64,000 bases of DNA from a bacterium (GTDB taxonomy: Bacteria; Bacteroidota; Ignavibacteria; UBA10030), in NCBI GenBank assembly GCA_043803945.1, contig JAZDJN010000016.1, forward strand, positions 128,001-192,000. The letters run 5' to 3'. The notes beneath the pieces were generated by a model. The model was not told the origin of the DNA, made no database searches, and was given only the letters and a program-made list of their open reading frames with translations. The position numbers and the translations under genes are program-made. Below are positions 13,458-14,522 of this stretch, in pieces (the stretch's first letter is position 1; every line of letters begins with the position of its first letter).

Positions 13458-14522
13458 TTACAGCTTCGATGCCATCAAGTTCAACAGATCAACTGTACGA
13501 ACCGAATAGCCCCATTCATTATCATACCAGGAGATCACTTTGAAGAACCTCTTTTCACCCTTCAGATTATTCTGCACTGTGGCAAGAGAATCATAGATGG
13601 ATGAGCGGTCATCGTGGATGAAATCACTCGAAACAACTTCTTCGTTCGAGTATCCGAGAATGCCATGCAGATAGGTTTCAGACGCTATCTTCATCAAACC
13701 ATCAATTTCCTCGATCGAAGTATCGCGTGCTGCACGGAACGTCAGATCGACGACCGAGACATCAGGCGTCGGGATACGGAACGACATGCCGGTCAGCTTT
13801 CCTTTGGTTGCAGGAAGAACTTCACCGACAGCTTTCGCTGCTCCGGTTGTGGAAGGGATAATGTTCATAGCCGCAGCACGACCACCTCTCCAGTCCTTCT
13901 TTGAAGGGCCATCGACGGTTTTCTGTGTAGCAGTATACGAGTGGATCGTTGTCATCAAACCGGTTTCGATGCCGATACCCTCCTTGAGAAGTACATGAAC
14001 GACAGGGGCCAGGCAATTTGTTGTGCACGATGCGTTGGAGACTATTGTGTGCTTTGCGGGATCATAATCGGCATCATTGACTCCCATTACGATGGTCTTG
14101 ACATCACCCTTTCCTGGGGCTGTAATGAGGACTTTTTTCGCGCCGGCAGCAATGTGGCCTTTCGCTTTTTCAGAGTCTGTAAAAAGGCCGGTGGATTCAA
14201 TGACAATATCAACACCTAGCTCTTTCCACGGCAATTGGGAAGTTTCCTTCTGTGCCTGGACACATTTCATTTTATGTCCGTTGACCACAAGCACATCGTC
14301 TGCTTCCAATGAAGGATTGTTTTTCTCACTGCTCAGCGTGCCGCGAAAATGGCCATGAACCGAATCATACTTGAGCTGGTATGCAAAGTATTTTGCATCT
14401 GTGCTCACATCGACCACTGCGACGACATCGATTGATTTCCCGAGATATCCTTTATCAGCCATCACGTTGACGATTTGACGACCAATGCGACCAAATCCAT
14501 TAATACCGACTTTGACTGCCAT
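13458..14522 (-). CDS. gap: Type I glyceraldehyde-3-phosphate dehydrogenase
   Basis: [14 protein letters not shown], catalytic [23 protein letters not shown] at 14522 follows GGAGG. Confidence 0.97.

What the first reader, a model, noticed from the sequence alone, without database searches (positions are those of the whole stretch)
13458..14522. GAPDH of the trypanosomatid-glycosomal type, ending in a PTS1-like -SKL tripeptide
Seen: [27 protein letters not shown], an insertion [13 protein letters not shown] before [79 protein letters not shown], and the last codons ATG GCA TCG AAG CTG TAA (MASKL). From memory, these segments closely match Trypanosoma/Leishmania glycosomal GAPDH (which has a similar insertion and a C-terminal -AKL/-SKL peroxisomal signal) and the related Treponema GAPDH, rather than ordinary Bacteroidota/Chlorobi Gap. 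Inference: a horizontally acquired member of the clade linking bacteria and Euglenozoa. The SKL end may be chance, but it bears on the direction of that transfer.
Basis: partly seen in the sequence, partly recalled or inferred. Interest (0 to 1): 0.7.

Follow-up and report, generated by a model that had tools for sequence, protein, structure and literature searches.

The report
Trypanosome-like GAPDH in a bacterium
This is the bacterium's only working glycolytic GAPDH, of a bacterial type to which the trypanosome glycosomal enzyme also belongs, and its peroxisome-signal-like SKL ending is a coincidence that comes from the local tail of the gene.

Summary
Window 13458-14522 (minus strand) encodes a 354-aa type I GAPDH. 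It is 72% identical, without gaps, to Leishmania glycosomal GAPDH and 68% to that of T. brucei, and it ends in -SKL.

It is the genome's only GAPDH and lies upstream of pgk. In an ML tree it falls in a 63-row clade (100/100). Kinetoplastid, Symbiodinium and environmental eukaryote-like sequences form a 22-row group inside a 41-row, otherwise bacterial subclade (100/100) that holds no sequence of the host's class (probably Ignavibacteria).

The SKL is not a relic of a peroxisomal signal:
- It is the conserved GAPDH end "MASK" plus L.
- Kinetoplastid PTS1s lie 6-7 residues further on, on an extension whose "MAKKDG.." start many bacterial members share.
- -SKL is limited to one family-level subclade.
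- The last 14 residues match a non-glycosomal-type GAPDH found at the same syntenic locus in the closest relatives (12/14) better than other subtype members (6-7 of 12-13).

This points to a mosaic gene from in-situ replacement. An AU test rejects SKL bacteria as sister to the eukaryotes (p 0.0003). Whether the eukaryotes are nested within bacteria is strongly suggested but borderline by AU (p 0.059).

Verdict: a new member of a long-known kind, of low to moderate interest.

The parts
13458..14522 (-). [quoted passage not shown] It is the only GAPDH in the genome.
   Evidence: TIGR01534 scores 434.9 bits against a cut-off of 367.2. PF00044 and PF02800 both match. It is the only match over the cut-off in the whole genome.
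14295..14333 (-). Codons 64-76 ([13 protein letters not shown]). This is the insertion that marks the subtype; it is about 8 residues longer than the ordinary GAPDHs of relatives.
   Evidence: In the alignment it is present in 47 of 52 subtype loci. The 5 loci of family f12 lack 7 residues of it. It is absent from the 8 type C genes. Alignments to kinetoplastid enzymes have no gaps.
14025..14027 (-). Codon of the catalytic cysteine C166, in [10 protein letters not shown]194 is also present.
   Evidence: Seen in the translation. C166 and H194 are invariant in the 16-sequence subtype alignment. Their roles are from established GAPDH enzymology (recalled).
13503..13529 (-). Codons 332-340 (WYDNEWGYS), a stretch conserved in all GAPDH types. 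This is the inferred crossover zone of the mosaic.
   Evidence: DNA identity to the window in this zone is 70-93% for all types. The flanks on either side behave oppositely.
13458..13502 (-). Last 14 codons ([14 protein letters not shown]) plus the stop. This is the 'resident' tail that carries -SKL.
   Evidence: It matches type B genes 12/14 and 10/14, but subtype genes of other families 7/13 and 6/12. DNA identity is 69-73% to type B against 49-52% to subtype genes of families f7 and f22.
14527..14532 (-). Shine-Dalgarno-like GGAGGA, 4 nt before the ATG at 14522.
   Evidence: Read from the sequence.
13404..13452 (-). G+C-rich hairpin followed by a U-run, between gap and pgk. It is a probable terminator or attenuator.
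   Evidence: -29.5 kcal/mol, z -3.94, and 0 of 200 shuffles fold as well.
12032..13297 (-). pgk: phosphoglycerate kinase, 421 aa, the 'long' allele class, of ordinary bacterial type.
   Evidence: The best solved relatives score 475.5 and 449.6 bits, against 390.8 bits for chain 13pk (I recall 13pk as T. brucei PGK). The allele classes are shown.
15751..19308 (-). Conserved flank: a comF-like phosphoribosyltransferase gene (15751-16506) and uvrB (17299-19308).
   Evidence: Synteny in relatives is shown.
9822..11895 (-). Conserved flank on the other side: ispG (9822-10904) and an unnamed 311-aa ORF (10963-11895).

Best explanation
The gene encodes the organism's sole, active, NAD-dependent phosphorylating GAPDH. 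It is transcribed with or just ahead of pgk and serves glycolysis and gluconeogenesis in the cytoplasm of a bacterium, probably of the class Ignavibacteria. It belongs to a widespread bacterial GAPDH subtype whose members are also the closest relatives of the glycosomal GAPDH of Kinetoplastea. In this lineage the subtype did not come down vertically with the genome. At a conserved locus (ispG - ORF - pgk - gap - comF - uvrB), members of one family carry three different gap types. The window's gene is a mosaic. Residues 1 to about 340 are of the glycosomal-type subtype (type A). The last 14 residues, with the downstream spacer and pgk, are of the family's resident kind. This points to replacement by homologous recombination with one crossover in the universally conserved [15 protein letters not shown] stretch. 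The -SKL end has no targeting role. It is the conserved GAPDH C-terminal 'ASK' plus one leucine, inherited with the resident tail. Shown: family membership, sole copy, clade membership, patchy distribution, synteny, tail similarity, and the position of the kinetoplastid PTS1. Inferred: enzymatic activity, the recombination mechanism and its direction, and the lack of function of SKL.
For: Enzyme and sole copy:
- TIGR01534 scores 434.9 bits against a cut-off of 367.2, and both Pfam domains match.
- The catalytic Cys and His and the GxGxxG motif are present.
- It is the only GAPDH over the cut-off in a 100%-complete genome.

Clade:
- The best solved structures score 548-571 bits against 386 or less for all other GAPDHs.
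- Identity to named kinetoplastid enzymes is 72% and 68% with no gaps.
- In the careful ML tree of 98 rows the subtype is a 63-row clade at 100/100, and the window sits in a 6-row clade at 100/98.

Patchiness:
- Same family, 24 genomes: type A in 7, type B in 3, type C in 12, no match in 2.
- Class sample: 51 of 301 genomes, in 6 of 28 families.
- Phylum sample: 50 of 401 genomes.

Same locus, different genes:
- Synteny uvrB-comF-gap-pgk-ORF(-ispG) holds in genomes of types A, B and C.
- UvrB identity is 75-83% whatever the gap type. The nearest genomes by UvrB (G021 83%, G018 82%) carry type B.
- G040, of another family (UvrB 73%), has a 90% identical gap and a 79% identical pgk. Its family mate G032 has a 54% gap and a 66% pgk.

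Mosaic tail:
- Window residues 341-354 match type B 12/14 and 10/14, against 7/13 and 6/12 for type A of other families. Every other 20-residue window (17 of 17) favours type A, and 16 of them show type A at 15-20 of 20.
- DNA identity of the body is 45-49% to type B and 77-82% to type A. DNA identity of the tail is 69-73% to type B and 49-52% to type A of f7/f22.

SKL is chance:
- 47 of the 120 closest homologues end SKL. Others end SKLK, SKM, SKI, MVK, AAK and so on.
- 0 of 101 extended bacterial members and 0 of 13 named bacterial members have a PTS1-like end, against 14 of 14 named kinetoplastids.
- PTS1-like ends also occur on type C (L060, IASKL), on type B (3 of 3), and on 3 of 80 GAPDH loci kept from a partial scan of genomes.
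- The kinetoplastid PTS1 lies 6-7 residues beyond the position aligned with the window's K353.
Against: - No expression or activity data were obtained.
- The tail is only 14 codons. On identity to type B alone the excess is modest: about 0.003 by my own binomial estimate before correcting for 18 windows. This figure was worked out by hand, not in a call.
- The direction of the exchange could be the reverse, with type B copying the tail of type A.
- UvrB identity to the window is not a species tree, so the number of replacement events within the family is not established.
- Part of the subtype gene tree follows the families (f1, f7, f12, f28 form clades). That fits long vertical stretches after acquisition.
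- Base composition shows no foreign signature: GC is 0.477 for gap against 0.471 for the window.
- The host's class name rests on source names of 86-90% identical proteins, not on a marker of this genome.
Confidence: 0.8

Rival explanations
1. The SKL end is a relic of a peroxisomal targeting signal. On this reading the bacterial gene descends from a PTS1-bearing euglenozoan glycosomal GAPDH (eukaryote-to-bacterium transfer), and this lineage kept the signal.
For: The end fits the canonical PTS1 consensus. The protein is 68-72% identical to glycosomal enzymes. An AU test did not formally reject a tree in which all core bacterial sequences form one clade apart from the eukaryotes (p 0.0589).
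Against: - The SKL-bearing clade is rejected as sister of the eukaryotes (log-likelihood difference 132, AU p 0.000257).
- It is separated from them by branches with 100/100 and 100/96 support.
- SKL aligns with 'SK' plus one residue of the conserved MASK motif, 6-7 residues before the kinetoplastid PTS1.
- The bacterial members nearest the eukaryotes end in ASK, KDK, KKDGAK and the like: 0 of 13 named ones are PTS1-like.
- The same tail occurs on a GapA/B-class GAPDH (type B) in the nearest relatives.
Confidence: 0.02
2. The glycosomal-type gene is the vertical, ancestral GAPDH of this lineage. The other two types seen at the locus in relatives are the invaders. The window gene was not horizontally acquired at any recent level.
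For: The subtype occurs in 6 families of the class and in 3 further families of the phylum. Sequences of the class sit at the base of the core clade, and several families form their own clades. There is no compositional anomaly.
Against: - 22 of 28 families of the class sample have none.
- Within one family the three types are interleaved at equal UvrB distance.
- The gene of G040 (another family) nests inside the f1 clade at 97/85.
- The window tail resembles the resident types B and C more than other type A genes do. This is expected if the type A body came into a resident gene.
Confidence: 0.15
3. The shared tail of types A and B in this family is not a recombination scar of the replacement. 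It results either from later gene conversion from A to B, or from convergent selection on the last helix.
For: The tail is short. Both gene types work in the same cellular background with the same downstream pgk class.
Against: - The similarity is also seen in DNA, at 69-73% against 49-52%.
- It continues into the spacer and pgk, at 66-69% to type B genomes.
- No genome searched holds both types at once: there is one match per genome.
- Type C genes of the same family also end in ASKL, ASKF or ASKFD.
Confidence: 0.12

Closest known systems
Glycosomal GAPDH (gGAPDH) of Kinetoplastea (Trypanosoma, Leishmania and relatives; solved structures such as 1gyp, 1a7k, 1k3t, 2x0n)
   Same: Identity is 68-72% with no indels over 351-353 residues. 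The insertion after the first beta-alpha-beta unit, the catalytic motifs and the 'MA(S/A)K' helix end are the same. Both fall in the same 100/100 clade.
   Different: The kinetoplastid enzymes continue 6-7 residues past the position aligned with the window's K353 and end in a PTS1: 14 of 14 named ones end SKI, SKM, AKL or ARL. The window protein stops one residue after K353. The host is a bacterium without peroxisomes. The organism names of the four PDB entries are recalled; the tool gives only the molecule titles.
Bacterial members of the same clade (MAGs named Fibrobacter, Brevinematales, Thermospira aquatica, Kiritimatiellae, Tepidisphaeraceae, Phycisphaerales, a Spirochaetes MAG, a Negativicutes MAG; other classes of Bacteroidota)
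   Same: Same subtype and same insertion, at 75-79% identity for the loci measured (L064-L066).
   Different: They are closer to the kinetoplastid enzymes than the window protein is: 601-605 bits against 571 bits to the same solved chain. They form, with the eukaryotes, a 41-row clade at 100/100 that excludes the window's class. Many carry the extension MAKKDG(x)xK.
Published accounts of inter-kingdom GAPDH transfer: Henze et al. 1995 PNAS; Figge et al. 1999 Mol Biol Evol; Wiemer et al. 1995 J Mol Evol; Takishita et al. 2003 Protist (Symbiodinium and euglenophyte)
   Same: The link between a eubacterial GAPDH lineage and euglenozoan enzymes, and the presence of the same type in Symbiodinium, are in print. 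Here, Symbiodinium tandem GAPDHs fall in the eukaryote group.
   Different: I saw only the titles of these papers, in the reference lists of PMC1920508 and PMC5610209. Their content is recalled, and PMC40936 is not held. Four full-text searches on this literature listed nothing on members in Ignavibacteria; the word 'Ignavibacteria' itself was not among the search terms.
Ordinary GAPDHs of the host's relatives: type C (332-336 aa) and type B (351 aa, GapA/B class)
   Same: Same enzyme family and the same locus next to pgk. They have a similar C-terminal tail: type B SVRTADLANLMASKL, type C IASKL or ASKF.
   Different: Identity over the body is only 47-57%. They lack the insertion. The best solved relative of type B is chain 1gd1 at 413.6 bits, not a glycosomal enzyme.

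Membership tests
Type I phosphorylating GAPDH (TIGR01534; Pfam PF00044 + PF02800) | Whole-protein score above the curated cut-off | tested here: met
   434.9 bits against 367.2. Gp_dh_N scores 104.8 and Gp_dh_C 207.2 bits, both over their cut-offs.
Type I phosphorylating GAPDH (TIGR01534; Pfam PF00044 + PF02800) | Catalytic Cys in S-C-T-T-N-C, catalytic His, and an N-terminal GxGxxG dinucleotide fold | tested here: met
   SNASCTTNC (C166), H194 and INGFGRIGR are in the translation and invariant in 16 subtype sequences. Their roles are recalled from GAPDH enzymology.
Type I phosphorylating GAPDH (TIGR01534; Pfam PF00044 + PF02800) | Enzymatic activity | not testable with these tools
   It is the sole copy in a complete genome, which makes activity very likely. 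No assay was done.
Glycosomal-type GAPDH clade (bacteria + Kinetoplastea + a few other eukaryotes) | Groups with glycosomal GAPDH to the exclusion of other GAPDH classes | tested here: met
   63-row clade at 100/100 in the careful ML tree and at 100 in the quick tree. There is a gap of about 160 bits in the solved-structure search.
Glycosomal-type GAPDH clade (bacteria + Kinetoplastea + a few other eukaryotes) | The characteristic insertion (window residues about 64-76), at the same place and of the same length | tested here: met
   0 gaps in the alignments to Leishmania and T. brucei enzymes and to the solved chains. It is absent from types B and C.
PTS1-targeted (glycosomal or peroxisomal) GAPDH | C-terminal tripeptide of the type [SAC][KRH][LMI] | tested here: met
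   It ends in SKL. The consensus is recalled.
PTS1-targeted (glycosomal or peroxisomal) GAPDH | The tripeptide is homologous in position to the PTS1 of the glycosomal enzymes | tested here: not met
   K353 aligns with K354 of 361 (Leishmania) and R396 of 402 (T. brucei). The PTS1 lies 6-7 residues further on.
PTS1-targeted (glycosomal or peroxisomal) GAPDH | The tripeptide is conserved among orthologues | tested here: not met
   47 of 120 closest homologues end SKL. 11 end in KLK, which buries the motif (10 of the 11 are SKLK, one is SKMK). The others end in K, KM, AGY and so on.
PTS1-targeted (glycosomal or peroxisomal) GAPDH | The host has peroxisomes and a PEX5 receptor | not tested
   No PEX5 search was run. 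The genome is held among prokaryote genomes, and the gene sits in a bacterial gap-pgk arrangement with a Shine-Dalgarno site. Bacteria are not known to have peroxisomes (established knowledge).

The most novel reading that the evidence does not exclude
A central glycolytic gene behaves as an exchangeable allele in these bacteria. At one conserved locus, three GAPDH classes and two pgk classes replace each other by homologous recombination, with a crossover inside the [15 protein letters not shown] stretch that all GAPDH genes share. The result is a chimeric enzyme: a glycosomal-type body with a resident tail. Separately, the kinetoplastid PTS1 was built on a C-terminal extension (MA-K-K-D-G..) that already existed in the bacterial donors. 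That places the donor among the bacteria of the 41-row subclade (named members include Fibrobacter, Brevinematales, Kiritimatiellae and Planctomycetota) rather than among the window's class (probably Ignavibacteria), and makes the transfer bacterium-to-eukaryote.
Probability: 0.5. Interest if true: 0.4.

Novelty: new member of a known kind. Interest (0 to 1): 0.3.

Why it matters
This removes a tempting but false lead: a canonical peroxisomal tripeptide on a bacterial protein that is 72% identical to a glycosomal enzyme. It shows how such an end arises by chance from the conserved 'ASK' terminus of GAPDH.

On the positive side, the bacterial clade around the glycosomal GAPDH turns out to be large and to span several phyla. 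The eukaryotic sequences lie inside one of its subclades, and their C-terminal extension has a bacterial precursor. These points bear on the old question of where the kinetoplastid glycosomal enzyme came from.

The locus is also a clean example of in-situ replacement of a housekeeping gene, with a recombination joint inside the gene.

Tried and rejected
- The search of 50%-identity representatives was of little use. The whole clade collapses into few clusters, and the top of the list is fusions and fragments.
It is therefore a partial and possibly unrepresentative sample, not a census of phyla.
- The classical papers on euglenozoan GAPDH origin are not in the library (and searches). The passages I read in PMC9512073, PMC1665464, PMC4106842, PMC1920508 and PMC5610209 do not discuss the bacterial relatives of the glycosomal enzyme.
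- I considered and rejected that pgk is also of euglenozoan type. Its best solved relatives are ordinary bacterial PGKs.
- I considered a compositional signature of recent transfer and found none.
- The simple terminator scan missed the hairpin after gap. A fold found it.
- The solved-structure sequences printed were not used for the tree. Named kinetoplastid sequences were reached through the protein collection instead.
- No named Euglena or diplonemid sequence was obtained, so 'Euglenozoa' is represented here by Kinetoplastea and unnamed environmental sequences only.
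Full report
**1. The observation**

Window 13458-14522 holds, on the minus strand, an ORF of 354 codons plus stop. The start is the ATG at 14522. Homologues begin MAVKVG, and GGAGGA lies 4 nt upstream.

The protein passes the curated cut-off of type I GAPDH (TIGR01534, 434.9 against 367.2 bits). It has both Pfam GAPDH domains, the catalytic Cys166 in SNASCTTNC, His194, and the N-terminal GxGxxG motif.

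**2. The resemblance to glycosomal GAPDH**

Against all solved structures, the four best chains score 548-571 bits, and two of them are titled 'glycosomal'. The next GAPDH scores 386 bits. I recall these four entries as Leishmania mexicana, T. cruzi and T. brucei enzymes; the tool does not name organisms.

Named sequences were then obtained from the protein collection. Identity is 72% over 351 residues to a Leishmania martiniquensis protein and 68% over 353 residues to T. brucei glycosomal GAPDH, both with zero gaps. The insertion (window residues about 64-76) is therefore shared at equal length. The ordinary GAPDHs of relatives lack about 8 residues there.

**3. Role in the genome**

The genome has 5.54 Mb in 118 contigs and is 100% complete. 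It has only this one GAPDH over the family cut-off. The gene lies 160 nt upstream of pgk.

A G+C-rich hairpin followed by a U-run lies in the spacer (-29.5 kcal/mol, z -3.9). Pgk is an ordinary bacterial PGK. Its best solved relatives score 475.5 and 449.6 bits, against 390.8 bits for chain 13pk, which I recall as T. brucei PGK.

So only gap is of the unusual type, and it must be the working glycolytic and gluconeogenic enzyme. Activity is inferred, not shown.

**4. Distribution**

The 120 closest proteins in the large collection are 86-90% identical. Where they carry a source name, it is MAGs of 'Ignavibacteriales' or 'Bacteroidota'.

| Sample | Result |
|---|---|
| Same family, 24 genomes | 7 carry the subtype at 86-90% (type A); 3 carry a 351-aa GAPDH (type B: G011, G018, G021); 12 carry a 332-336-aa ordinary GAPDH at 47-57% (type C; the one in G020 is cut by a contig end); 2 have no match |
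| Class, 301 genomes | 51 match at E <= 1e-120, in 6 of 28 families (f1 7/17, f7 8/10, f12 13/15, f22 14/23, f28 7/12, f32 1/1); none in the other 22 families |
| Phylum, 401 genomes | 50 match; three further families outside the class have it (f36 5/5, plus 7 genomes of f52 and 2 of f66); the three largest families have none (0/87, 0/61, 0/28) |

It still showed the subtype in MAGs named Phycisphaerales (77%), Spirochaetes (79%) and Negativicutes (75%). It also showed a more distant set at 57-67% in Verrucomicrobiota, Planctomycetota and Anaeromyxobacter.

**5. Phylogeny**

A quick tree of 110 rows and a careful tree of 98 rows agree. The careful tree used LG+G4, ultrafast bootstrap and SH-aLRT, and its bootstrap had not fully settled.

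For the careful tree I dropped 15 rows that were long-branched or near-duplicates, and added the three type B genes. The last 14 columns were left in.

- The subtype is a 63-row clade (100/100).
- Inside it, a 41-row clade (100/100) holds all non-Ignavibacteria-class bacteria: Fibrobacter, Brevinematales/Thermospira, Kiritimatiellae, Tepidisphaeraceae, Phycisphaerales, the Spirochaetes and Negativicutes MAGs, Saccharofermentanales, and Bacteroidota of other classes. It also holds all eukaryotes.
- 11 named kinetoplastids, 10 unnamed environmental sequences and a Symbiodinium repeat form a 22-row group (100/96). Hyaloraphidium lies near it with weak support.
- The sequences of the window's class lie outside the 41-row clade.
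- The window sits in a 6-row clade of its family plus G040 (100/98).

Bit scores to the same solved chain agree with this. The window scores 571, a Bacteroidota member of another class 605, the Spirochaetes MAG 601.5, and a Verrucomicrobiae member 474.

Two AU tests were run.
- Holding the 40 core bacterial rows together costs 51.4 log-likelihood units, p 0.0589. This is borderline, and the group was named after the tree was seen. Nesting of the eukaryotes among bacteria is strongly suggested by branch support but not formally secured.
- Holding the 6 SKL-clade rows with the 23 eukaryote and environmental rows costs 132 units, p 0.000257. This arrangement is rejected.

**6. The SKL end**

(a) Position. 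Kinetoplastid enzymes read ..VDLVRYMA(S/A/K)KD, then 4-6 residues, then the final [SA][KR][LMI] tripeptide. All 14 full-length named ones end SKI, SKM, AKL or ARL. The window's K353 aligns with K354 of 361 (Leishmania) and R396 of 402 (T. brucei), so the true PTS1 lies 6-7 residues further on. The window's SKL is 'MASK' plus L.

(b) Bacterial precursors of the extension. Fibrobacter proteins stop at MASK, Brevinematales at ISKDK, and many others read MAKKDGAK or MAKKDG(x)LK. The first part of the kinetoplastid extension therefore exists in bacteria. None of 101 extended bacterial proteins and none of 13 named bacterial ones has a PTS1-like end.

(c) Conservation. Of the 120 closest homologues, 47 end SKL, 3 SKM and 1 SKI. 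11 end in KLK; 10 of those are SKLK, where an extra residue buries the motif, and one is SKMK. The rest end in MVK, AAK, MAK, VTK and so on. Among 52 subtype loci fetched, 9 have a PTS1-like end, and 8 of those 9 are from the window's family clade.

(d) Background. PTS1-like ends also occur on a type C gene of the same family (IASKL), on all 3 type B genes, on a Thermoguttaceae and an Anaeromyxobacter member (GSKL, AAKL), and on an ordinary Flammeovirgaceae GAPDH. The last three make 3 of the 80 loci kept from the partial scan.

**7. The mosaic**

The locus ispG - ORF - pgk - gap - comF - uvrB is syntenic in genomes with types A, B and C.

UvrB is 75-83% identical to the window's across the family whatever the gap type. 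The two nearest genomes by UvrB (G021 83%, G018 82%) carry type B. Type B belongs to the GapA/B class; its best solved chain is 1gd1 at 413.6 bits.

Pgk falls into two classes. A 421-aa class at 74-85% identity is found in all 10 type A or B genomes of the family and in G040. A class at 57-68% is found in all 12 type C genomes.

G040, of another family (UvrB 73%), has a 90% identical gap and a 79% identical pgk. Its family mate G032 has 54% and 66%.

Type B genes end SVRTADLANLMASKL or ..NMMAAKL. Identity to the window:

| Compared with | Protein, residues 341-354 | DNA, body (228 nt before the conserved zone) | DNA, last 45 nt |
|---|---|---|---|
| Type B, same family | 12/14 and 10/14 | 45-49% | 69-73% |
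| Type A, other families (f7, f22) | 7/13 and 6/12 | 77-82% | 49-52% |
| Type C, same family | 7/14 | 49% | 62-67% |

In each of the 17 earlier 20-residue windows, type A is closer than type B. In 16 of them type A matches 15-20 of 20, and type B matches 2-16.

For the 400 nt downstream of the stop, DNA identity to the window is 66-69% for type B, 64-65% for type A of the family clade, and 44-48% for type C. For type A of other families it is 65% in one f7 genome, 45% in another and 52% in an f22 genome.

The simplest reading is that a type A body replaced the body of a resident gene by homologous recombination. One joint lies in the [15 protein letters not shown] stretch, which is 70-93% identical in DNA among all types. 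The SKL tail is then the resident tail. The event is old, because all type A genes of the family share the tail.

The direction of the exchange, and convergence as an alternative, cannot be excluded on 14 codons.

**8. What is known**

Links between eubacterial GAPDHs and euglenozoan enzymes, and a Symbiodinium GAPDH of euglenophyte type, are in the literature. I saw only the titles of these papers in reference lists; their content is recalled. The open library does not hold them.

Four full-text searches on the bacterial relatives of the glycosomal enzyme listed nothing on Ignavibacteria members or on a recombinant tail. The word 'Ignavibacteria' itself was not among the search terms. Supplements were not consulted.

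**9. Verdict**

The sequence observation is right, and the affinity to glycosomal GAPDH is real. This is a further member of a known bacterial-euglenozoan GAPDH clade, and it serves as the sole GAPDH of its host.

The idea that the SKL end informs the direction of the inter-kingdom transfer does not hold.

Two by-products are of moderate interest:
- the in-situ allele replacement with an intragenic joint;
- the finding that the eukaryotic sequences, with their PTS1-bearing extension, sit inside a bacterial subclade whose members already have the first half of that extension.

Noticed in passing
window 14714-15748 (+): A URO-D-family (uroporphyrinogen decarboxylase-like) gene lies between gap and comF only in the window. 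In three relatives (L143, L147, L148) comF lies about 300 bp from gap. In two others (L144, L145) 2.3-2.9 kb of other DNA lies there. The spot just upstream of gap is therefore variable.
   Followed up: partly
L143:4542-5594, L144:6641-7693, L145:5953-7005: Type B GAPDH, 351 aa, of the GapA/B class, on a long branch (0.47). It is found at the gap locus in the three relatives G021, G018 and G011, and it ends in AKL or SKL.
   Followed up: partly
window 12032-13297 (-) and relatives: pgk occurs in two allele classes in one family: 421 aa at 74-85% identity, against 57-68%. The classes go with the gap type and not with UvrB identity.
   Followed up: partly
genome G001 (same family, 98% complete): No GAPDH match (1 candidate scored, none passed) and no PGK match (no candidate at all) with these queries.
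   Followed up: no
proteins P0309, P0366, P0369: Bacterial members of the clade with cysteine-rich C-terminal tails, such as ..GSGTCCCCCS..KCECDCGCKK and ..QGCCTGCCSTCK. Their function is unknown.
   Followed up: no
protein P0384: A 749-aa protein carrying both GAPDH domains and a PGK domain (PF00162). It is either a gap-pgk fusion or a read-through gene call.
   Followed up: no
proteins P0271-P0273 and P0304: Symbiodinium proteins consist of two tandem GAPDH units of this subtype. A 360-aa protein named Hyaloraphidium curvatum (a fungus) is 77% identical to the window protein and lies beside the eukaryote group with weak support. It could be a transfer or contamination.
   Followed up: partly
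L075: A contig labelled as an uncultured Bifidobacteriaceae MAG carries a GAPDH that groups tightly with Pedosphaera/Verrucomicrobiota sequences. This may be a binning error.
   Followed up: no
proteins P0425, P0426: Unnamed environmental sequences with the extension but no PTS1 (both end ..ATA). P0425 lies at the base of the kinetoplastid group in the careful tree, and the two pair at 96 in the quick tree. They may be cytosolic forms from other euglenozoans.
   Followed up: no
window 13404-13452 (-): A strong hairpin with a U-run lies between gap and pgk. It suggests that gap can be terminated separately from pgk.
   Followed up: partly
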